Shown here one piece after another: positions 69-11,609 of a DNA stretch of 11,609 nt. A program made the translations under genes and the position numbers. The notes beneath the pieces are model-generated. The model was given only the letters and a program-made list of their open reading frames with translations. It was not told the DNA's origin and made no database searches. This stretch comes from a virus. Lineage: Duplodnaviria; Heunggongvirae; Uroviricota; Caudoviricetes. Location of the stretch: the IMG/VR virus record IMGVR_UViG_2695420600_000007; one strand, 5' to 3'. The first letter of the stretch is position 1. The number at the start of each line of letters is the position of its first letter.

Positions 69-461
69 ATGATGTTAGTACAAAAAGTACGGAATACGAT
101 GAAGCAGCTTATCAATGCTACTAAGAATCTGACAGTATCACGTGATGTTGATGTATTTGAACAAATTGCTTTTGATTACTCATTAACGAGTTTAAGTTTC
201 AGCAATGAACGCCGGGCAGGTAACTTTGCAATTCAGTATCTGATTTCCCCTAAACCAGAATCAGGTAATACAGCCCCATCCATCACTTATGATCAGATTA
301 TTAGTACTTTTGATAAAGAGAAAACTTCAGCATTCAGTGATGCAGGTTTAATAATGCTTTCGTGTTCTTATGAACAATCCGATATTGTCACAGATCCTAT
401 AACTGGCTCGGTTTCCCTATCCTTTACGATAAATATTCAAGTTACGGAAAAGACAAGATAA
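69..461 (+). CDS. Hypothetical phage structural protein (about 130 aa); position upstream of the fibre and tube genes would fit a tail terminator or completion protein, but this is not supported by sequence
   Basis: ORF track frame 42..461. Preferred start is ATG 69, preceded by AGAGGA at 55..60 with an 8-nt spacer; the GTG at 42 has no Shine-Dalgarno sequence. The frame is open back to the window edge, so an upstream start cannot be excluded. Contains I-S-PKPESG-N, which matches the C-terminus of the 3114..3587 protein. Confidence 0.5.
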   Translation: MMLVQKVRNTMKQLINATKNLTVSRDVDVFEQIAFDYSLTSLSFSNERRAGNFAIQYLISPKPESGNTAPSITYDQIISTFDKEKTSAFSDAGLIMLSCSYEQSDIVTDPITGSVSLSFTINIQVTEKTR

Positions 462-478
462 CTAAAAGGATATAAAGG

Positions 479-3055
479 ATGAGTGATATTTTCTCAGGAA
501 GAGAATTATCAGTACAGTATAATGCTGATATTGGTAACAGAACACCACAGGGAGCAGGCAATGTAGTAATTAAACAGATTAATACTTTTCCAACCTTAAC
601 AATAAATTCAGAAGCAAATAATTTTGAAACGTATGATAGTGATTACAGGACAGTACTACTATCTGATAAATCAGTAGCACCATTTGATATTGTAGTTAAC
701 TACCTACCTGATGATCCTACACATCAATTCTTGGATAATGCCGCTAAGTCTCAGCAGCTTTTCCAGATCATCATTCAGTACCAGATGAATAAGGATGAAA
801 ATACCATTACTTATGCGATGGTGAATGGTTATATCACCTCTTATAAGTTGGACGGTGATAAAGGTTCAGTAGTAACCAAGGCATACAGTTTTGCCCCACA
901 TGATGTGATCGCACGTGCAATGACCATTAACGCACTATCGCCAATCTATCAGGGGGACTACGGTTTAGGTTCGAACACTACGGATGTACCTCAGTACTCA
1001 CCATCAGTACCTACGGGTAACAGCTTCATCAAAGTACCATCATCTCAAGCAGGCAATCCTGCCGGGGCGGATCTGATGGGAGTAGGGCTTGTAGATGGCA
1101 CTACTGTAAGTTCTCTTGCGATGACAAAGACGGGTACTCTAAGTATCTATGCAAAGAACGCTACAACCGCCTGGACACGCATATATACCGCTACACAGAT
1201 GGACGGGCGATACGTACCCCTTACACGTACCATCAACGGCCATGCACTCACGGCCAATTTAGTACTGAACAGTGAAGATACAGGTTCAGTACCTGATACA
1301 CGTACTGTGAATGGTAAGCCTCTAAGTGAGGATGTAGTACTTACCAGTACTGATACCGGCTCTGTACCAGATACACGGACAGTTAATGGTCATGTACTCA
1401 GTGAAGATATAGTACTGAGTAGTGAAGATACAGGTTCAGTACCTGATACACGTATGGTCAACGGTCATGTACTCAGTGAGGATGTAGTACTTACCAGTAC
1501 TGATGTTGGCTTAGGGAAGGTTACAGATGATGCCCAGCTTACGATAGCAGGTAATCTAAGTGATCTGGGGGACGTGGAAGAAGCACGTATTAACCTTGCT
1601 GTTTACTCAATGGATGAAGTAGATGCAGAGGTAACGGCTTTAGCTGACAGTATTACTTCCCTTGATTCCGCTTCCATGAAGAAAGCGAGTAACCTTTCTG
1701 ATCTATCCAGTCTCTCTACAGCACGTACTAACCTACAGGTGAACCGTTTGACTCAGGGTGCTACGTACACCGATCTGATGAGTAATGACCTGACTAACCG
1801 TATCCGAATTCAGGATAACGGGGCATGGGGTGCAAGTACTGGTACTGGATGGATTGCTTTAGGTATAGGTCAGGGGGGGACAGGGGCTACAGATGCTTTG
1901 AGTGCTCGCCTAAACTTTCAGGTGGATCGCTTTAATCAAGGTAGTAATTTAACAACTATTAAATCCGCTGATTCTTCCGCTGCATTAGTGGTTTATGATG
2001 GAGGGCAATGGGGTTCAGCTACATATATTGCGGGTGCTTTCACTGGCTGGAAAGCATTAGCAATTCCGCAGGGCGGTACTGGTGTTAAGACTCAGGCTGA
2101 GTTATGGCCTGCGATTCGTCCTACGGGTGCAACTTCTTTAGCAGGAGATCCTGTCTCTGATTCTGACGCGACTACCAAACGCTGGGTTGAAAACTTGCTG
2201 AGTAGTCGTACTTCAGTTAGTCCTCAATGGGATGTTATTGCTTCTTCCCCTTCCTCTACGGCAATTGGTAGTTATGTAACTGGAGGGCGTATTCGTTCGA
2301 TATGCAACATTGGTACATCAACTGAAATATCTGGTGGTTTTCGGGTTGGTAAAACGATGGGACAGACTGGACAGGCTGATCTCACCCTTTTTATTTCTGA
2401 AAATGGTGCAGAGGATAAACTATGGGGGCTAAAAGGGCCGACTGGAACGATCCTAACTGATGTTCAATCAGGATGGATGACTAATACCGCTGTTTCGGGA
2501 CCGACAGATGCCAATACCATCACCTTTAACGGTATGTATGCAGGGCCAGGTGACTCAGGTATTAACTATAGTGAAAAATATTCCCCTTTATTGCACATGC
2601 AAAGACACCCAGGGGCAAATCGCTCTCAGCTTCAGATAGACGGTGGTGGTACTTTAAGAGTACGAGGCGGGAACGGTACAACATGGTTTGGATGGTTAGT
2701 AATGCAAGCTCAAGGTACATCAGGTCGTGAGTTTAAAAGAGACATAACTCCAGCAAATCCAGTTGAAGCATTAGATCGGATAATGTCACAAGATTTAGTA
2801 ACGTTTATCTACAAGGATGATGAACAAGAAAGGGTTAGGTTTGGTGTTATCGCCGAAGATGCTGAGTTGACTGCTCCGCAGTACATTAAGCATGATGAAG
2901 AAACAGTTGAAATAGAAGGGGAGATTGTCACTCGTGATCATCCACGTGTTGATTTAAATCCAATAGTGATGGACTTGATGGGAGCTATTCAAGCCCAACA
3001 AGAAGAAATTAATCAGCTAAAAGATTTAGTACAACAGCTATTAAATAATAAATAA
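479..3055 (+). CDS. Tail fibre protein (858 aa): N-terminal domain paralogous to the tube protein, tandem fibre repeats, and a C-terminal intramolecular chaperone (peptidase S74-like) autoprocessing domain
   Basis: Long ORF with RBS AAAGGA at 465..470. The N-terminus MSDIFSG...NTF...VNYLPDD...GDKGSVVTKAYSFA aligns with the 3114..3587 protein (MAMDIFSG...NTF...VNYLPDN...GDKDEVVTKTFTLA). Four tandem 25-aa repeats (SVPDTRTVNG..LSEDVVLTSTDTG) resemble phage tail-fibre repeats. NLSDL...AR.NL and GGTG motifs are fibre-like. The C-terminus SGREFKRDITPANPVEALDRI...FIYKDDEQERVRFGVIAEDAE matches the S-D/G-x-R-x-K-x-(N/D)-I pattern of endosialidase-type chaperone domains. Confidence 0.85.
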   Translation: MSDIFSGRELSVQYNADIGNRTPQGAGNVVIKQINTFPTLTINSEANNFETYDSDYRTVLLSDKSVAPFDIVVNYLPDDPTHQFLDNAAKSQQLFQIIIQYQMNKDENTITYAMVNGYITSYKLDGDKGSVVTKAYSFAPHDVIARAMTINALSPIYQGDYGLGSNTTDVPQYSPSVPTGNSFIKVPSSQAGNPAGADLMGVGLVDGTTVSSLAMTKTGTLSIYAKNATTAWTRIYTATQMDGRYVPLTRTINGHALTANLVLNSEDTGSVPDTRTVNGKPLSEDVVLTSTDTGSVPDTRTVNGHVLSEDIVLSSEDTGSVPDTRMVNGHVLSEDVVLTSTDVGLGKVTDDAQLTIAGNLSDLGDVEEARINLAVYSMDEVDAEVTALADSITSLDSASMKKASNLSDLSSLSTARTNLQVNRLTQGATYTDLMSNDLTNRIRIQDNGAWGASTGTGWIALGIGQGGTGATDALSARLNFQVDRFNQGSNLTTIKSADSSAALVVYDGGQWGSATYIAGAFTGWKALAIPQGGTGVKTQAELWPAIRPTGATSLAGDPVSDSDATTKRWVENLLSSRTSVSPQWDVIASSPSSTAIGSYVTGGRIRSICNIGTSTEISGGFRVGKTMGQTGQADLTLFISENGAEDKLWGLKGPTGTILTDVQSGWMTNTAVSGPTDANTITFNGMYAGPGDSGINYSEKYSPLLHMQRHPGANRSQLQIDGGGTLRVRGGNGTTWFGWLVMQAQGTSGREFKRDITPANPVEALDRIMSQDLVTFIYKDDEQERVRFGVIAEDAELTAPQYIKHDEETVEIEGEIVTRDHPRVDLNPIVMDLMGAIQAQQEEINQLKDLVQQLLNNK
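1211..1510 (+). repeat. Four in-frame tandem 75-bp (25-codon) repeats inside the fibre gene
   Basis: Repeat units at 1211..1285, 1286..1360, 1361..1435 and 1436..1510. Perfect 34-nt direct repeats at 1271..1304 and 1421..1454, and perfect 30-nt direct repeats at 1325..1354 and 1475..1504, give a 150-bp super-period. Confidence 0.85.
2720..3052 (+). other. C-terminal intramolecular chaperone / autoproteolytic domain of the fibre (S74-like); predicted cleavage immediately before Ser748 (codon 2720..2722)
   Basis: Motif QAQGT|SGREFKRDI followed by ALDRI and FIYKDD..RVRFGVIAEDAE, then a C-terminal helical heptad-like tail (IQAQQEEINQLKDLVQQLL). Assigned from recalled family motifs, not from a search. 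Confidence 0.6.
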
Positions 3056-3063
3056 ATATAAAC

Positions 3064-3098
3064 GGGGTGAACGGATTCACTCCAATAAAATTTTCTTA
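3064..3098 (+). terminator. Candidate intrinsic terminator after the fibre gene (weak)
   Basis: Hairpin GGGGTGAA-cgga-TTCACTCC (8-bp stem with one G-U pair, 3064..3083) followed by AATAAAATTTTCTT. The T-tract is not immediately adjacent to the stem. Confidence 0.35.
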
Positions 3099-3113
3099 TA
3101 AGGATATAAAACT

Positions 3114-3587
3114 ATGGCTATGGATATTTTTTCCGGTGCTAACCTTACTGTAGAAGTAGGTTCAAGTGCTGGTAAAACAGTTGCTACTGACTTTGTAGAA
3201 GTACCAGAGGTAAACACCTTCAGTACTTCAGGCTTTGAAAGTACTGTAATTAGCGTAAAAACATTCAATAATGCTTATGATCGTAAGCTATTGGGTACTA
3301 AGTCAATCCCGGACATTTCTCTTGCAGTTAACTACTTACCAGATAATGCAGTACATCAGAATTTAGAACAACTTGCAGACGATCAGAAACGTTGTCAGGT
3401 AAAACTAAGCTATTTTACCGATGCAACTAAAAAAGAAGGTTTCTTTGTAATTTATACCTGCTTTGTTTCAAGTACCACTATCGGTGGTGATAAAGATGAA
3501 GTAGTAACTAAGACTTTCACCCTTGCAGTTGATGGTGAAGCAATTGATTCAGGTCTGATTACTCCAAAACCAGAATCGGGCGAATAA
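3114..3587 (+). CDS. Probable major tail (tube) protein, 157 aa
   Basis: Sits directly upstream of the chaperone pair and tape measure gene, the position of lambda gene V. Size and the N-terminal G-x-x-L-x-V-x-V-G pattern are typical of siphovirus tube proteins. RBS AAGGA at 3100..3104. Followed by a hairpin terminator, as is common for highly expressed tube genes. Confidence 0.6.
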   Translation: MAMDIFSGANLTVEVGSSAGKTVATDFVEVPEVNTFSTSGFESTVISVKTFNNAYDRKLLGTKSIPDISLAVNYLPDNAVHQNLEQLADDQKRCQVKLSYFTDATKKEGFFVIYTCFVSSTTIGGDKDEVVTKTFTLAVDGEAIDSGLITPKPESGE

Positions 3588-3595
3588 TAATAAAT

Positions 3596-3626
3596 AAAGG
3601 GAAGGTGCTCAACTTTCCCTTTTTTA
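3596..3626 (+). terminator. Rho-independent terminator or attenuator between the tube gene and the chaperone genes
   Basis: Stem AAAGGGAAG (3596..3604) pairs with 3614..3622 (CTTTCCCTT region) around a 9-nt loop, followed by a T-run at 3620..3625. Confidence 0.5.
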
Positions 3627-3638
3627 TTGGAGATGAAA

Positions 3639-3938
3639 ATGAATTTAAACGAATTGAAGAAAAAACTACAACCAGAATTAAAACCACATGAAGTAATGGG
3701 TGAAATCATCTTTATTCATCGTCCAAATGGTCAGGATTTCCAGAAATGCACTGATGTGGCTAAAACTCTAATCCTATGTGTAAAAGATGAAAATGGTGAT
3801 CCTATCTTCGCAGAAGAAGATATTGATGGACGAATTAATGTTAACTCTATTGATTTTGTAATCCAGAATGAAATTTACTCAGCAATTATTGCTTTAATCA
3901 ATACTGCGAAACCTGTAGATGAAGTAGAAAAAAAGTAA
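3639..3938 (+). CDS. Tail assembly chaperone, gpG-like
   Basis: Small acidic protein directly upstream of the tape measure gene. ORF track frame begins at TTG 3627; the preferred start is ATG 3639, with GGAG at 3629..3632 and a 6-nt spacer. Ends ...VDEVEKK with stop at 3936..3938. Confidence 0.7.
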   Translation: MNLNELKKKLQPELKPHEVMGEIIFIHRPNGQDFQKCTDVAKTLILCVKDENGDPIFAEEDIDGRINVNSIDFVIQNEIYSAIIALINTAKPVDEVEKK

Positions 3939-4333
3939 GAGGTGATATCGAATTAAAGTACTTTTGTAAGATGGTTAACAAAAGAGGCTTATCACCTGAA
4001 GAATACTTTAGTTTAGATCCTGATGTACTCAATATGCTTATGATCTACGATACTTTTATAGAACCATCCGGTACGCAGATTGAAATGATGAAACATGCGT
4101 ACCAGTGTTACTACACCACTATCAGTAATGGCAACCTAACACCAGAAGCAAGGAAAAGTATCAAGGTACAGGATTTTGATTTTCTTGATGTGCTTAGTGA
4201 TAGTACTAAGAGTACTTCAGAGAAAGCTGAAGAAAGAAAATTAAAAACTAAAGAGGCTCAATCCAATGATATTAAATCTATAGGGGAGTTAATTAAATCT
4301 CAGGTATTAGGAAAGAAAAAGAATGGCAAATAA
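3639..4333 (+). CDS. Tail assembly chaperone frameshift fusion product, gpGT-like (-1 shift at 3929..3935; the T-part frame ends at 4333)
   Basis: The downstream ORF (frame of 3971..4333) lies in the -1 frame relative to the G-like ORF and is open back to 3923, overlapping the slippery site. Its stop overlaps the tape measure start at 4323. Confidence 0.6.
3929..3935 (+). promoter_or_regulatory. Programmed -1 ribosomal frameshift slippery heptamer A_AAA_AAG
   Basis: In the zero frame the codons are gaA AAA AAG then TAA. A 7-A run at 3928..3934 is followed by G. The -1 frame is open from 3923 and continues into the 3971..4333 ORF, matching the conserved G/GT arrangement. Confidence 0.7.
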
Positions 4334-6536
4334 TAATAGAATACGTGTAGATATTACGGGTGATTCTTCCGGTTTACAGCGTGCTTTAAGGTCTGGTACT
4401 GAATCATTAGAGGAATTTGGTAGTACTGCTGGTGGCATTGTTGAAGAGTTCACAGGCCGAATAACTGGTATGGCTGGCGGGTTCGGTACTGCTATGACCG
4501 GGATCGCGGGTGCTGCGGCTATTGGTATTGGTGGCCTGGCAGCATTAGTAGAATCATCACGTGAATATGTGCGTGAAATGAACCAGATCAGTAAGAGTAC
4601 CGGATTGTCCGTGGTTCAGTTACAACAGCTATCAGCGGCGTTTAGTGGCCTCGGTCTTGAGATTGATAAGTTTGGTGATTTCAACAAGGATACCTTGGAT
4701 AAGCTCGGTGATGCTTTTCGTGCTGGCGGTGGTGTATCCGATGATCTTAAAGAATATGGACTCAACCTACAGGACTATAACAAGTACTTAAAACAGGCTG
4801 ATGGTGGTATGCAGGCTGTGATCCACACCTTTTACGCCATGCGTGATGCAGGTAAATCACAGAGTGAAATAGTTAACGTAATGGAAACGTTAGCCAGTGA
4901 CTCAAGCCACATGATTAGTACTCTTCAGCAGTTCAATAATGAGGCTCAAGCTACAGCCTATATCCAGTCACAAAATGCTGAAGTAACTAATGATGCTGCT
5001 GAAAAATATGCTGAATTCGATAAAAACCTTGGGAAACTTACTACCAGCATTAAAGGTACTATTGCTGATGGCCTATCACCTTTAGTTAATGCCATGAACA
5101 GTGTCTATGATGCTGCAAATCAAAAACCTCACGAGGCAGGTTTGTTTGAAGATCTGAATGAACGTATTAAAACTTCCAAGGGTTCTCTACAGGATATGTT
5201 GGATATCTGGGAAAAATTACGTACAGCAGGGGCATTAAACTACCAGGGTGCAGCACTCAATACTGGCATCATGGATGATAAGGGCAACAAGGGTAATGAG
5301 TTCGCTCAGGCTAAGGCACGTTTAGAAGAACTGGCAAACAACCTAAAGTCCGATGTTGCGGTTGCTACCGCTCCTACTGGCGGATGGGTTGATCAGGCAA
5401 AAGAAGCTGAAGATGCAGCGAAGAAGTTAGAACAACAACGTAAACAGGCAGAAGCGGCACAAAAGGCGGCAGATGCAAAACGCCTACAGGCTCAACGTAA
5501 TCTGGAAGCTGCTCTTGCTCAAGTTGGGGAAGATGGTTTTCAGGTACGTCTACAGCAGTTCGACAGACAACAAAAGGCACTTCTTAAAACCATCACCGAT
5601 AGTGCTCAAGTACTCGGTATCAATCCTGATGAAATGCTAAAGAACGCTACTGCATATGGTGCTAAACAACGTACTGATTTACTGAATTCAATGGTTGGTT
5701 ATCAAGATCCTAATCAGGGTCTGAAAGATACCAATGCTCTTATTGGTTCCGGTCTACTCAATGACAATCAGAAGGGGTATCTGGCACAGCAACAGAATCA
5801 GCGTATCAATGGTGGTAATCCATTAGCCTATAACGATACCGATCAGAAGTTGAAAGATAACGCTGATGCTATGAATGCTGAACTTCAGCAGAATGAGTTG
5901 TTGCTGAAAGGCCATGAGGACTATGAGAAACGTAAAGCTGAGATCACGGCAAAGTACAATGCACAGGCCATCCAAATCAGTAACCAGAATGCACAGGATC
6001 AGTTAAGTATCTTCTCAAGTACTGCACAGTCACTATCACAGGGCATGGTTGATGCGTTTGGGGAAAGTAGTGGGGCTGCACAAGCTGCATTTACCCTAAG
6101 TAAGAGCATAAGCATTGCACAGACAGTACTTTCAATTCAGTCAGCATTGGCCCAAGCACTCGCTACCCCTTGGCCAGCTTCATTGGCAAACTATGCACAA
6201 GTACTTTCACTTGGTATGTCGATTATTAGTACTGCAAAGGGTGCTGCTGCTGGTCAGTTCCATGGCGGGGTAGATGAACTACCAGCAAGTTATGACAACA
6301 AATCATTTGTACTTAAGCAGGGCGAGAGAGTGGTGCAGCCTGAAGCGAATAAGAAATTAACAGCATTCTTGGATAAACAAGAAGGTGGAAGTACTTCAGG
6401 TGATATTACCGTTAACGCACCATTGATCATCCAGGGTGATGTAGCTGATGATGACAAGAAATTTAATGAGATGCTTAAGAAACACGCCAATAGTGTTTCT
6501 CAAGCTGTGAGAAGTAGTCAAAAACGTAATACATAA
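4323..6536 (+). CDS. Tail tape measure protein, 737 aa
   Basis: Position after the G/GT pair. Gly/Ala-rich hydrophobic N-terminal segment (GMAGGFGTAMTGIAGAAAIGIGGLAAL), a long central Ala/Gln/Lys-rich helical region, and a C-terminal hydrophobic segment (ALATPWPASLANYAQVLSLGMSIISTAKGAAAG). Confidence 0.85.
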   Translation: MANNNRIRVDITGDSSGLQRALRSGTESLEEFGSTAGGIVEEFTGRITGMAGGFGTAMTGIAGAAAIGIGGLAALVESSREYVREMNQISKSTGLSVVQLQQLSAAFSGLGLEIDKFGDFNKDTLDKLGDAFRAGGGVSDDLKEYGLNLQDYNKYLKQADGGMQAVIHTFYAMRDAGKSQSEIVNVMETLASDSSHMISTLQQFNNEAQATAYIQSQNAEVTNDAAEKYAEFDKNLGKLTTSIKGTIADGLSPLVNAMNSVYDAANQKPHEAGLFEDLNERIKTSKGSLQDMLDIWEKLRTAGALNYQGAALNTGIMDDKGNKGNEFAQAKARLEELANNLKSDVAVATAPTGGWVDQAKEAEDAAKKLEQQRKQAEAAQKAADAKRLQAQRNLEAALAQVGEDGFQVRLQQFDRQQKALLKTITDSAQVLGINPDEMLKNATAYGAKQRTDLLNSMVGYQDPNQGLKDTNALIGSGLLNDNQKGYLAQQQNQRINGGNPLAYNDTDQKLKDNADAMNAELQQNELLLKGHEDYEKRKAEITAKYNAQAIQISNQNAQDQLSIFSSTAQSLSQGMVDAFGESSGAAQAAFTLSKSISIAQTVLSIQSALAQALATPWPASLANYAQVLSLGMSIISTAKGAAAGQFHGGVDELPASYDNKSFVLKQGERVVQPEANKKLTAFLDKQEGGSTSGDITVNAPLIIQGDVADDDKKFNEMLKKHANSVSQAVRSSQKRNT

Positions 6537-6546
6537 GAAAGCCCAG

Positions 6547-7119
6547 TTAGGGATTTTCCGTGTGATAAGACAAATATTGTGAAAGAGAAGATGAAAGGGT
6601 ATAGAGATTGTAATACTCTTCCCGCAATAATTTAACTTTAGGTGGTGAGTATTTAATATTGTATGCAAGCTGTGTTGAAAGAGTACGTAATCTCGATAAT
6701 GAATAATAACTCTTTACGATGGCATCTACTTCTTTTTTTGGGAGTGATGCTAATTTTTCTAATTGGGAATAATATACATCATCATGCAAATAAGAAACGG
6801 CAGTTGCTACTCTTTTAATAGCTTCTGTATCTTCAGTTGGAAGAGGAATACATATTTCATATGTGCCTAACACCTGAGACTCATCGCCACCAGTAGCAAG
6901 AGCTAAAAGGTTATTGTTGATTTCGCTCAATAAGATTACACGCATCTTAAAAACATCATCTGAACTTTCTTTCCATTTATCATATGCGTTATAGCCTATT
7001 TGGCCTGCAAATAACAACATAGCAACGATGACGGATGCAGCCTGCCAATCAAGCCTGTTAAAAAAAATACGAATCGAGGTTTTTAAATAAATAAAGAAAG
7101 AAGATATTCGAGGTAACAA
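6547..7119 (-). CDS. Hypothetical protein with a hydrophobic N-terminal segment; reverse-oriented accessory gene (moron) inside the tail module
   Basis: The only long ORF in the 584-bp gap between the tape measure and gpM-like genes, on the opposite strand. The region is visibly more AT-rich than its neighbours. ORF track start is TTG 7119; in-frame ATGs lie at 7020 and 6945, so the true start is uncertain. The N-terminus WQAASVIVAMLLFAGQIGY is hydrophobic. No recognisable family motif. Confidence 0.5.
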   Translation of the reverse strand: MLPRISSFFIYLKTSIRIFFNRLDWQAASVIVAMLLFAGQIGYNAYDKWKESSDDVFKMRVILLSEINNNLLALATGGDESQVLGTYEICIPLPTEDTEAIKRVATAVSYLHDDVYYSQLEKLASLPKKEVDAIVKSYYSLSRLRTLSTQLAYNIKYSPPKVKLLREEYYNLYTLSSSLSQYLSYHTENP

Positions 7120-7120
7120 A

Positions 7121-7678
7121 ATGGCATCCTTTTCAAATCAAATAAAAGTAACGAACTTTCAAATTAAAAGTACTGAACCGATCTATTCTAATCAAACATG
7201 GACAGGTCAACGTATCATGAGAAGTACTGGAATTCAATACTATCAAATTCAGTTCACCCTTAATTTTAATCCTGCATCACTAAATGAAGTGAATAGCTTT
7301 TTAGCTCAATATGCACAGGGCAAACCTTTCACTATGTCATTGGGGCTTGCAGGTACATATTACGGTAAACAGACTGGTGCAGTAACCGCTACTGCTCTCA
7401 CTAAACCGGGTAATATGGTTGTACCTATCAGTACTAACACATTAGCTGTGGGTGAGTGGGTACAGTTTTCCAATCACAATAAGCTATATCGAATCGTAGA
7501 ACGTACCAGTACTTCAATTACTATTTTCCCTGCTCTACAAAATACAGTACAGGCAAGTGAAGCACTCAAATATAACAATCTCATGATCGAGGCTGTATTA
7601 GATCCAGACAATGATTATTCATTGCCTATTGGGAACATCATGAATATTACATTGAAAGCAACGGAGAATATCATCTAA
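7121..7678 (+). CDS. Minor tail protein, gpM-like (distal tail region)
   Basis: Position after the tape measure gene. The segment SFLAQYAQGKPFTMSL resembles the lambda gpM motif ESFLEEHGGWKSFLWT. RBS GAGG at 7110..7113. Stop overlaps the next start (TAATG). Confidence 0.5.
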   Translation: MASFSNQIKVTNFQIKSTEPIYSNQTWTGQRIMRSTGIQYYQIQFTLNFNPASLNEVNSFLAQYAQGKPFTMSLGLAGTYYGKQTGAVTATALTKPGNMVVPISTNTLAVGEWVQFSNHNKLYRIVERTSTSITIFPALQNTVQASEALKYNNLMIEAVLDPDNDYSLPIGNIMNITLKATENII

Positions 7679-8300
7679 TGGACTCAGGTATATATACTAA
7701 TGCTAATCTTCTTAAGTACTGGAAGTTAGTCAGAGGTACAACCAAGACAAGATTAACACTAATGGAAATTATGAGCTTAGGCGTTAATGTTACTTGTTTT
7801 GATGTACTACCAAAAGGTACTAATGGTTTTCACTGGACGGATTCACTAATTGATATAGATCTGGATGGTTATAAGTACATAAGTTTCCCCGACATTATCA
7901 GTGGTTCATTACCTTCATATTCTGAACAAAAGGGCATGTCTAATGATGCTATCAATTTTAAAATTAGCAATGTAAACGCCTCGGTTCGTGCTCTTGCCCT
8001 TGGTGGTTTCTTGAAAGATGCACAGATGAATATCAAGTTAGTAATTCTCAATCCATATGATAGTACTGTAATTGATTCAATGCTCATGTTTACGGGGTTT
8101 ATTGACTATGTACAGGCAGTAACTGATCCAAATCAGAAGCAAAACGAAATGACTATATATGTGAATTCTGTCTATAAGAAATTAGACAGACAACCTGCAT
8201 TAATTGCCGCCAACTCAGTATATCAATCTTACTATAGAAATGATGAGTACTTTAGTCTGTTAGGTCAAGTTAATCAAAATCAGAACTGGAAATACAAGTA

Positions 8301-8301
<1 letters not shown>
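7678..8301 (+). CDS. Minor tail protein, gpL-like
   Basis: Coupled to its neighbours by TAATG overlaps at both ends. Size (207 aa) and position match lambda gene L. Similarity is loose and pattern-level only. Confidence 0.5.

Positions 8302-11609
<3,308 letters not shown>

What the first reader, a model, noticed from the sequence alone, without database searches (positions are those of the whole stretch)
479..3055. Tail fibre whose N-terminal domain is a paralogue of the adjacent tube protein
The first ~160 aa of the 858-aa fibre align with the 157-aa protein encoded at 3114..3587 (MSDIFSG / MAMDIFSG, NTF, VNYLPDD / VNYLPDN, GDKGSVVTKAYSFA / GDKDEVVTKTFTLA). The 11 nt upstream of both starts (AAGGATATAAA, at 466..476 and 3100..3110) are identical, indicating a gene duplication that included the RBS. 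If the short paralogue is the tube protein, the fibre carries a tube-like module that could be built into, or dock onto, the tail tube. This architecture is uncommon. The fibre gene also lies upstream of the tube gene rather than after J.
Basis: partly seen in the sequence, partly recalled or inferred. Interest (0 to 1): 0.7.

Follow-up and report, generated by a model that had tools for sequence, protein, structure and literature searches.

The report
Side tail fibre fused to tube-protein paralogue
In this Shigella prophage the long side fibre begins with its own diverged copy of the tail-tube building block, so it is probably built directly into the tube wall rather than hung on an adaptor; I found no published description of this way of attaching a fibre, although it is common in prophages of enteric bacteria.

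Summary

The fusion-plus-tube gene pair is conserved in every intact related locus examined. More than 100 protein clusters from Enterobacterales share the architecture. No fibre gene follows J in the four relatives checked.

The duplication is old: the paralogues are 25-36% identical in every relative. The identical 11-nt upstream motif is therefore a conserved ribosome-binding site, not a relic of the duplication.

Most likely the fibre is anchored covalently as a specialised ring in the tube. This would do in one chain what T5 does with its p140 ring, p132 collar and fibre. Position and copy number are inferred, not shown. I rate it a new variant of known kinds, of moderately high interest.

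The parts
466..476 (+). Ribosome-binding motif AAGGATATAAA of the fusion gene
   Evidence: Read directly. It is one of only two exact copies in the window. TAAGGAT-type motifs precede the fusion gene in most relatives.
479..3055 (+). Gene for the 858-aa tube-domain/side-fibre fusion protein
   Evidence: ORF. The same architecture occurs in 16 IMG/VR loci and 5 genome loci and in more than 100 representative clusters.
479..937 (+). Residues 1-153: tail-tube-protein (TTP) fold domain, paralogue of the neighbouring tube protein
938..1006 (+). Residues 154-176: predicted flexible linker leaving the tube domain
   Evidence: pLDDT is below 50 in both AF2 models. The segment is rich in Gly, Ser, Pro, Thr and Asn.
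1016..1198 (+). Residues 180-240: small conserved beta domain, possibly equivalent to the Ig-like C-domain of gpV
   Evidence: AF2 pLDDT 72-86, five strands. Full-length lambda gpV aligns over 258-273 columns. More than 100 representative proteins share residues 1-250. There is no Pfam hit, so the Ig assignment is tentative.
1277..1504 (+). Three tandem 75-nt (25-aa) fibre-shaft repeats
   Evidence: Tandem Repeats Finder. A near-identical relative, L008, has one more unit: 883 aa against 858 aa.
2090..2224 (+). Residues 538-582: motif shared with the DT57C lateral fibre LtfA, just before the variable distal region
   Evidence: phmmer domain 2 against 8hqz_d.
2126..2701 (+). Residues about 550-741: hypervariable distal region, the presumed receptor-binding part
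   Evidence: Only 2-7 of 146 representative relatives align across residues 551-725, against more than 100 across the N-terminal 250 residues.
2702..3052 (+). Residues 742-858: C-terminal intramolecular chaperone (Peptidase_S74 type)
   Evidence: Pfam PF13884 at 34.2 bits, threshold 22. Homologous to DT57C LtfA residues 953-1071; whole-protein E 2.3e-40.
3064..3083 (+). Conserved 8-bp GC-rich hairpin between the fusion gene and the tube gene
   Evidence: -10.5 kcal/mol, z -2.65. A hairpin with a different stem sequence lies at the same place in 9 of 10 relatives. The RNAalifold consensus is weak, with 2 compensatory pairs.
3100..3110 (+). Ribosome-binding motif AAGGATATAAA of the tube gene
   Evidence: Read directly. 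Conserved before the tube gene in relatives.
3114..3587 (+). Major tail tube protein, 157 aa
   Evidence: Pfam PF08813 at 34 bits, threshold 24.2. PHROG 158 at E 5.8e-19. Identical to P0007, which NCBI names 'phage tail tube protein [Shigella sonnei]'.
3596..3629 (+). Intrinsic-terminator-like hairpin and T-run directly after the tube gene
   Evidence: 11-pair stem plus a T-run. -17.8 kcal/mol, z -4.46. Conserved in all relatives.
3627..4333 (+). Tail assembly chaperone pair (G-like 3627..3938, T-like 3971..4333) with slippery A_AAA_AAG at 3929..3935
   Evidence: Pfam Phage_TAC_13 and PHROG 344. The slippery heptamer and the open -1 frame were read from the sequence.
4323..6536 (+). Tape measure protein, 737 aa
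   Evidence: PHROG 13674 at E 5.4e-86.
7121..7678 (+). Distal tail protein, the ring on which the tube starts
   Evidence: PHROG 1302 at E 7.9e-17; weak match to the Pfam pb9 B-domain.

Best explanation
The 858-aa protein is a lateral (side) tail fibre whose attachment module is a diverged copy of the phage's own tail tube protein.

Shown:
- Residues 1-153 have the tube-protein fold and are paralogous to the neighbouring 157-aa major tube protein.
- Next come a disordered linker (about residues 154-176) and a small beta domain (about 180-240).
- Then follows a repeat and coiled-coil shaft, a hypervariable distal region and a C-terminal S74-type chaperone homologous to that of the T5-like DT57C lateral fibre LtfA.
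- The fusion-plus-tube gene pair is conserved across a large clade of Enterobacterales prophages. The four relatives checked have no fibre gene after J.

Inferred:
- The C-terminal chaperone trimerises the fibre and cleaves itself off.
- The three tethered tube domains of each trimer are then built into the tail tube wall as half of a hexameric ring, so one ring carries two fibres.
- The most likely position is one specialised ring at the tip end, between the distal tail protein and the first ordinary tube ring. This would be like the tube-paralogue ring p140/TTMP that anchors the lateral fibres of T5/DT57C, but with ring, collar and fibre merged into one chain.
- The fibres then give reversible first contact with surface polysaccharide and set host range. 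J remains the central fibre.
For: Paralogy: 31% identity over 137 aa, E 6e-21, with only one 2-residue gap, so all tube-fold loops have the same length in both proteins.

Genuine tube protein next door, followed by chaperone, tape measure and distal tail protein.

Fibre part: Peptidase_S74 above threshold; homology to DT57C LtfA, E 2.3e-40; conserved N-terminal 250 residues against a unique distal region.

Conservation: in the 11 intact IMG/VR loci plus 5 genome loci a 150-157-aa tube gene follows the fusion gene, usually 50-61 nt downstream. The three other loci that reach past the fusion gene are degraded (L023, both genes frameshifted), deleted (L018, tube to tape-measure genes missing) or end at the contig edge (L014).

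No fibre gene lies downstream of the 1100-aa J in four relatives.

The fusion's tube domain has diverged faster than the tube protein at matched loci (50-69% against 74-88% identity). It stays at 25-36% identity to its own tube protein. This is as expected for a specialised minor subunit rather than an interchangeable one.

Precedent: T5 p140 is a tube-protein duplicate forming one ring between the tube and the distal tail protein, and it anchors the collar and lateral fibres (PMC10038345; DT57C TTMP/LtfC/LtfA, PMC10713586).
Against: - No virion of this lineage has been examined. Position in the tail, copy number and even incorporation into the tube are inferred from fold and analogy.
- Both genes have the same strong RBS and lie upstream of the same terminator. 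That would allow many more than six copies.
- Six chains per ring give two trimeric fibres, an unusual number next to a threefold tip.
- The gene sits next to head-tail connector genes, not baseplate genes, whereas the T5 authors used p140's gene position to place p140 in the baseplate.
- The N-domain matches no Pfam or NCBIfam tube model on its own.
Confidence: 0.6

Rival explanations
1. Scattered co-polymerisation. The fusion is a minor tube subunit that enters rings all along the tail together with the 157-aa protein, as SPP1 gp17.1* or the lactococcal extended tail protein do. The result would be a 'hairy' tail with fibres along its length.
For: The tube-fold loops have the same length as in the tube protein. 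Both genes share the same strong RBS and lie upstream of the post-tube terminator. Tube proteins with outward C-terminal decorations are well known: the lambda gpV Ig domain and SPP1 gp17.1* (hit; its minority co-assembly is from my own knowledge).
Against: The paralogues are only 25-36% identical, and the fusion domain evolves faster than the tube protein. A subunit contacting ordinary tube subunits on all sides should be held close to them. A trimeric fibre needs three neighbouring fusion subunits, which random mixing seldom provides unless pre-formed trimers enter as units. A conserved hairpin before the tube gene and a terminator after it bracket the tube mRNA alone. These could raise tube-protein output relative to the fusion.
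Confidence: 0.2
2. Neck-proximal ring. The fusion forms the last tube ring under the tail terminator, so the fibres act as neck whiskers or collar fibres.
For: The gene order is capsid, two small connector-type genes, fusion, tube. This places the fusion next to head-tail joining genes.
Against: Tube growth starts at the tip and is stopped by the terminator once the tape-measure length is reached. No mechanism is known that would add a different subunit only at the end. The documented extra tube-paralogue rings (T5 p140, T4 gp54) are at the tip end. Host-range fibres of the LtfA type act at the tip.
Confidence: 0.1
3. The tube-like domain is not part of the DNA conduit. It would dock on the outside of the tail or onto the distal tail protein or J. 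Alternatively it would serve only in assembly, for example as a nucleator or decoy for tube polymerisation.
For: Nothing direct. The N-domain has diverged enough to lose Pfam recognition and evolves quickly.
Against: A hexamer with the tube fold has the tube's own diameter, so it cannot encircle the tube. The full set of tube-fold elements is kept with no length changes. All known proteins with this fold in tails sit in line: tube, distal tail protein, hub domains, terminator.
Confidence: 0.07
4. Artefact or decay product: a recent local duplication, a frameshift fusion of two genes, or a misassembly.
For: The window copy lacks one 75-nt repeat present in a near-identical relative. Many database homologues are truncated.
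Against: The truncations examined (P0005, P0059) lie at contig ends. Intact 819-1351-aa ORFs occur in independent contigs from many genera. The 25-36% paralogue identity in all loci shows an old, maintained gene.
Confidence: 0.01

Closest known systems
T5 / DT57C lateral tail fibre apparatus: p140 (TTMP) tube-paralogue ring, p132 (LtfC) collar and pb1 / LtfA fibre
   Same: A diverged duplicate of the tube protein is dedicated to carrying side fibres. The fibre ends in a homologous S74-type chaperone and shares a pre-distal motif with LtfA. The distal region is modular and variable.
   Different: In T5 three separate proteins do the job, and p140 is a tandem double tube domain forming a trimeric ring. 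Here a single tube domain is covalently joined to the fibre, and no match to the collar-binding N-terminus of LtfA was seen: the alignment covers residues 347-853 only. Position in the tail is known for T5 and unknown here.
Decorated tube proteins: lambda gpV (N-domain plus Ig-like C-domain), SPP1 gp17.1*, lactococcal extended tail protein
   Same: A tube domain is followed in the same chain by an outward-facing extension. Full-length gpV is the best Foldseek hit and aligns over about 260 columns, which suggests tube domain plus small beta domain.
   Different: In those phages the decorated chain is the major tube protein itself or a frameshift product of its gene, and the decoration is one small domain (my own knowledge). 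Here it is a separate paralogous gene at about 30% identity carrying a roughly 700-residue trimeric fibre with a chaperone.
Other documented side-fibre anchors of non-contractile tails: Ur-lambda Stf N-terminal Ig ring around the distal tail protein, monocin distal-tail-protein loop, F-pyocin PyoF13 on the central fibre helix
   Same: The purpose is the same: to hold trimeric side fibres near a sixfold or threefold tail.
   Different: All are non-covalent dockings onto the distal tail protein or the central fibre (PMC13455828). None uses a tube-fold domain in the fibre chain.
Escherichia phage DCP80 record PQ671644.1, CDS 8763..10859 (698 aa)
   Same: It is the only phage-database record with the same layout. 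A long protein whose N-terminus aligns with the fusion domain (26% identity, E 9e-16) lies upstream of a short tube protein that is 40% identical to the window's.
   Different: A second 745-aa fibre-like gene without the tube domain lies between them. All are annotated as hypothetical. The record is classified as T4-like although this segment is a lambda-like morphogenesis module, so it may be a mixed assembly.

Membership tests
Siphophage tail tube protein (lambda gpV N-domain / Pfam Phage_tail_3 clan) | Beta-sandwich with flanking helix and long hairpin (the tail tube fold) | tested here: met
Siphophage tail tube protein (lambda gpV N-domain / Pfam Phage_tail_3 clan) | Sequence match to a curated tube-protein model at its threshold | tested here: inconclusive
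   The fusion N-domain matches no Pfam or NCBIfam tube model but does match PHROG 158 'major tail protein' at E 1.4e-16. The 157-aa paralogue passes PF08813 with 34 bits against a threshold of 24.2.
Siphophage tail tube protein (lambda gpV N-domain / Pfam Phage_tail_3 clan) | Assembles into hexameric rings stacked around the tape measure | not testable with these tools
   Only monomer prediction is available. Multimer modelling or EM is needed.
Siphophage tail tube protein (lambda gpV N-domain / Pfam Phage_tail_3 clan) | It is the major, sole tube subunit of the phage | tested here: not met
   A separate, better conserved 150-157-aa tube gene follows it in the 16 intact related loci and survives as a frameshifted copy in the degraded locus L023. 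The fusion is therefore a paralogue, not the major tube protein.
S74-chaperone tail fibres (T5 pb1 / DT57C LtfA type lateral fibres) | C-terminal Peptidase_S74 intramolecular chaperone domain | tested here: met
   PF13884 at 34.2 bits, threshold 22, residues 749-797. Residues 742-853 align with LtfA 953-1071 at 113.8 bits.
S74-chaperone tail fibres (T5 pb1 / DT57C LtfA type lateral fibres) | N-terminal segment that threads into the LtfC/p132 collar | tested here: not met
   The phmmer alignment to LtfA starts at residue 347. The N-terminus is a tube-fold domain instead.
S74-chaperone tail fibres (T5 pb1 / DT57C LtfA type lateral fibres) | Trimerisation and autoproteolytic release of the chaperone | not testable with these tools
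   Inferred from homology only. The sequence around GTS-GREFKRD (about residues 746-755) aligns with LtfA GTS-GIEYKKD.
T5 p140 / TTMP-type fibre-anchoring tube-paralogue ring | A tube-fold paralogue distinct from the major tube protein | tested here: met
T5 p140 / TTMP-type fibre-anchoring tube-paralogue ring | Tandem double tube domain forming a trimeric pseudo-hexamer without decoration | tested here: not met
   There is a single tube domain (residues 1-153) followed by a fibre. T5 p140 is described.
T5 p140 / TTMP-type fibre-anchoring tube-paralogue ring | One ring located between the last tube ring and the distal tail protein | not testable with these tools
   Needs EM of virions.
T5 p140 / TTMP-type fibre-anchoring tube-paralogue ring | A separate Ig-like collar protein (p132/LtfC) mediating fibre attachment | not tested
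   No window ORF was flagged as such by Pfam or PHROGs, but I made no dedicated search with p132/LtfC.

The most novel reading that the evidence does not exclude
This would be a previously undescribed mode of side-fibre anchoring in non-contractile tails, in which the fibre is a covalent part of the DNA conduit. Fibres pre-trimerised by their C-terminal chaperone would deliver three tethered tube domains at once. These half-ring building blocks would form a dedicated ring with two fibres and might even seed tube growth on the tip complex. Receptor engagement by the fibre could then pull directly on the tube lattice that relays the ejection signal.
Probability: 0.3. Interest if true: 0.8.

Novelty: new variant of a known kind. 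Interest (0 to 1): 0.6.

Why it matters
How side fibres are fixed to flexible tails is known for only a few models: T5, Ur-lambda, monocin and F-pyocin. Each uses non-covalent adaptors. A fibre that carries its own tube subunit would add a simpler solution.

It also raises a clear structural puzzle: six tube domains against threefold fibres, next to a threefold tip. And it gives a recognisable, conserved N-terminal 'handle' of about 250 residues for finding and swapping host-range fibres in a large family of Enterobacterales prophages. Databases currently label these proteins only 'tail fiber domain-containing' or 'hypothetical'.

Tried and rejected
Searches that gave little or nothing:
- Pfam and NCBIfam on the fusion N-domain found no tube model.
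- A profile search of PDB sequences with alignment A3 hit only a fibre motif.
- Megablast of the whole window against phages and 5,426 E. coli genomes matched only the IS2 end.
- The afdb50 fold library was unavailable.
- The genome-contig scan used one restrictive peptide pattern and returned only 5 loci, so it is not a prevalence estimate.
- Nine literature searches found no description of a tube-fibre fusion. Candidate leads turned out to be unrelated: phiCbK, the Sf11 'neck whiskers' label, Nocturne116, JBD30 and Milano.

Analyses set aside:
- The group-wise conservation comparison was confounded by unequal sampling of the two paralogue sets. I replaced it with the matched-locus comparison.
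- RNAalifold on the intergenic hairpin gave only a weak consensus because of alignment problems. I relied on the single-sequence folds instead.

Ideas rejected:
- Recent duplication including the RBS.
- Assembly or frameshift artefact.
- The fusion as the sole tube protein: even the degraded locus L023 keeps a frameshifted short tube gene.
Full report
**Origin and gene map**

The window is a complete 11,609-bp contig, CXCN01000131.1 of assembly GCA_001251255.1. It is 40% G+C. Its 157-aa protein is identical to a cluster representative that NCBI names 'phage tail tube protein [Shigella sonnei]' and that was seen on 353 contigs. The last 37 bases are an IS2 end. The window is therefore a prophage tail module in an enteric bacterium, probably S. 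sonnei.

All of the following genes are on the + strand unless stated:
- a small connector-type gene, about 69..461;
- the 858-aa gene, 479..3055;
- the 157-aa tube gene, 3114..3587;
- a tail assembly chaperone pair, 3627..3938 and 3971..4333;
- the tape measure, 4323..6536;
- a minus-strand ORF, 6547..7119;
- the distal tail protein, 7121..7678;
- two small tail proteins, 7678..8301 and 8301..8705;
- a J-like central fibre from 8698, which runs into IS2.

**Checking the observation**

BLASTP of residues 1-200 of the long protein against the 157-aa protein gives 31% identity over 137 residues with a single 2-residue gap and E = 6e-21. AAGGATATAAA is present exactly at 466..476 and 3100..3110, and those are its only exact copies in the window.

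**What the shared domain is**

The 157-aa protein passes Pfam Phage_tail_3 (34 bits, threshold 24.2) and matches PHROG 158 'major tail protein'. The N-terminus of the long protein matches no Pfam or NCBIfam tube model by itself. It does match PHROG 158 at E 1.4e-16 over residues 2-150.

Two AlphaFold2 models were made from alignments of database relatives. Both give a confident beta-sandwich-plus-helix core for residues about 10-153, with pLDDT 80-93 in the better model.

Foldseek against the PDB puts full-length lambda gpV first (E 1.3e-7). The alignment spans 258-273 columns, which is more than the tube domain alone. Foldseek against predicted viral structures again returns tube proteins.

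**The rest of the protein**

After the tube domain both models show a disordered stretch, about residues 154-176. A small five-stranded beta domain follows at about 180-240 (pLDDT 72-86). It may correspond to the Ig-like C-domain of gpV, but it has no sequence-family support.

Next come three 25-aa tandem repeats and helical segments with recurring 'ARxNL' motifs. Residues 538-582 share a motif with the lateral fibre protein LtfA of the T5-like phage DT57C. Residues 742-853 are clearly homologous to the C-terminal chaperone region of LtfA (whole-protein E 2.3e-40), and Pfam Peptidase_S74 is above threshold.

I compared the protein with 146 representative relatives. Residues 1-250 are shared by more than 100 of them, residues 551-725 by only 2-7, and the chaperone by about 25. 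This is the usual pattern for a host-range fibre: a conserved attachment end, an exchangeable receptor-binding end and a cassette-like chaperone.

**How widespread it is**

A profile search of 1.84 billion cluster representatives found 192 proteins at E <= 0.001. Of the top 146, 102 are at least 560 aa long, and in the listing the tube domain sits at residues 1 to about 155 of the long hits. Named members come from Shigella, Escherichia, Salmonella, Klebsiella, Citrobacter, Enterobacter, Serratia, Pantoea, Leclercia, Cedecea and Dryocola. They are labelled only 'tail fiber (domain-containing) protein' or 'hypothetical'.

Sixteen IMG/VR loci and five genome loci were inspected.
- In the 11 intact IMG/VR loci and all 5 genome loci, an 819-1351-aa fusion gene is followed by a 150-157-aa tube gene, usually 50-61 nt downstream, and then by the chaperone and tape-measure genes.
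- Three further loci reach past the fusion gene but are not intact. L023 has both genes frameshifted. L018 has a deletion from the fusion gene into the distal tail protein gene. In L014 the contig ends just after the fusion gene.

Many database homologues look short. For the two examined (P0005, P0059) this is because their contigs end inside the repetitive fibre gene.

Upstream, relatives carry a lambda-type terminase and portal, a protease-capsid fusion and two small connector-type genes. Downstream of the 1100-aa J gene, four relatives have only small ORFs and no further fibre gene. In those relatives the fusion is the only long side-fibre candidate.

Among 50,697 deposited phage records only one has the layout, at 26% identity. 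This is DCP80, whose record may be a mixed assembly.

**Age of the duplication and the RBS**

At matched loci the fusion's tube domain is 25-36% identical to its own tube protein in every relative. The duplication therefore predates the clade.

Across the same loci the tube protein keeps 74-88% identity to the window's copy, whereas the fusion domain keeps only 50-69%. The fusion copy is thus the faster-evolving, less constrained one.

Given that age, an unselected 11-mer could not have stayed identical. TAAGGATATAA-like motifs precede the tube gene in all relatives and the fusion gene in most. The identical 11-mer is a conserved strong ribosome-binding region, perhaps homogenised. It is not a footprint of the duplication.

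**Expression signals**

A strong terminator-like hairpin with a T-run follows the tube gene (3596..3629; -17.8 kcal/mol, z -4.5) and is conserved in all relatives. A GC-rich 7-9-bp hairpin lies between the fusion gene and the tube gene (3064..3083). It recurs with different stem sequences in 9 of 10 relatives, although a consensus fold of the aligned spacers is weak.

The tube mRNA is thus bracketed by two hairpins. I read this, as inference only, as a possible means of producing more tube protein than fusion protein.

**Mechanism**

Established knowledge: tube-fold proteins in long tails (tube, distal tail protein, hub domains, terminator) sit in line as sixfold or pseudo-sixfold rings. C-terminal decorations of tube proteins point outward, as in gpV. 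S74 chaperones drive trimerisation and then cleave themselves off.

Combining this with the data gives my best explanation. The fibre trimerises through its chaperone. Its three tube domains are tethered by linkers of roughly 25 residues, and they enter the tube wall as half a ring.

The closest precedent is T5/DT57C. There a diverged duplicate of the tube protein (p140/TTMP) forms a single ring between the tube and the distal tail protein, and it carries the collar (p132/LtfC) to which the lateral fibres (pb1/LtfA) attach. Here the three parts would be merged into one chain. A 2026 comparison of known side-fibre anchors lists only non-covalent solutions: the monocin distal-tail-protein loop, the Ur-lambda Stf Ig ring around the distal tail protein, the T5 collar and the F-pyocin central-fibre helix.

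I put about 0.6 on in-line integration as a specialised ring, most likely at the tip end. I give 0.2 to scattered co-polymerisation along the tube, 0.1 to a neck-proximal ring, and under 0.1 to a role outside the conduit. For the main model: the strong divergence from the tube protein, the faster evolution and the T5 and T4 precedents. Against it: the shared strong RBS, the position upstream of the terminator, and the odd number of two fibres per ring. Nothing here shows position or copy number directly.

**Novelty**

Both components are known kinds: a tube-protein paralogue or decorated tube protein, and an S74-chaperone lateral fibre. Their covalent combination as a conserved gene next to the true tube gene is not described in any paper I could find in nine full-text searches. 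It is not annotated in the databases. No Pfam or NCBIfam tube model recognises its N-domain. I rate it a new variant of a known kind, with interest 0.6.

Noticed in passing
window 11573..11609 (and J gene from 8698): The contig ends in 37 bases identical to an IS2 end. The J-like gene is 1100 aa in relatives, but here it runs into IS2 after about 958 codons. The prophage's central fibre is therefore probably disrupted in this isolate, or at least the assembly breaks there.
   Followed up: partly
window 6547..7119, minus strand: A 190-aa ORF on the opposite strand lies between the tape-measure and distal-tail-protein genes. It has an N-terminal hydrophobic segment (AASVIVAMLLFAGQIGY) and no Pfam, PHROG or NCBIfam match. 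In relatives the same gap holds different or no ORFs (0.06-0.9 kb). It looks like a moron insertion hotspot, possibly for an exclusion or defence gene.
   Followed up: partly
window 3929..3935 and 3971..4333: A classic -1 slippery heptamer, A_AAA_AAG, sits just before the stop codon of the chaperone ORF. The -1 frame is open from there into the 120-aa ORF. This is the conserved G/GT-type programmed frameshift of tail assembly chaperones.
   Followed up: partly
window 1277..1504: The fibre shaft has three 75-nt tandem repeats. A relative that is otherwise 99.9% identical (L008, 883 aa) has four. This is either a real copy-number polymorphism or a collapse in short-read assembly.
   Followed up: yes
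window 3064..3083 and 3596..3629: The tube gene is bracketed by a conserved GC-rich hairpin upstream and a terminator-like hairpin downstream, both present in relatives. They may stabilise or delimit the tube mRNA and set the tube-to-fibre ratio.
   Followed up: partly
L001 (PQ671644.1, Escherichia phage DCP80) 1..21380: The record is classified as a T4-like Gaprivervirus. Its first 21 kb, however, is a lambda-like siphophage morphogenesis module containing a tube-fibre fusion, a second fibre gene and a short tube gene, all annotated as hypothetical. The record may be a chimeric assembly.
   Followed up: no
L003 7461..9257, L004 3933..5729: Relatives encode a single 598-aa protein combining a Peptidase_S78 prohead protease with the major capsid protein. 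Only two small genes (107 and 130 aa) lie between the capsid gene and the fusion gene.
   Followed up: no
L038 12261..13215, L031 12261..13215: Directly after J, relatives carry two small conserved ORFs (98 and 218 aa, starting MAQGLQCWN... and MAGFEVYNSAG...) instead of a side-fibre gene. Their function is unknown.
   Followed up: no
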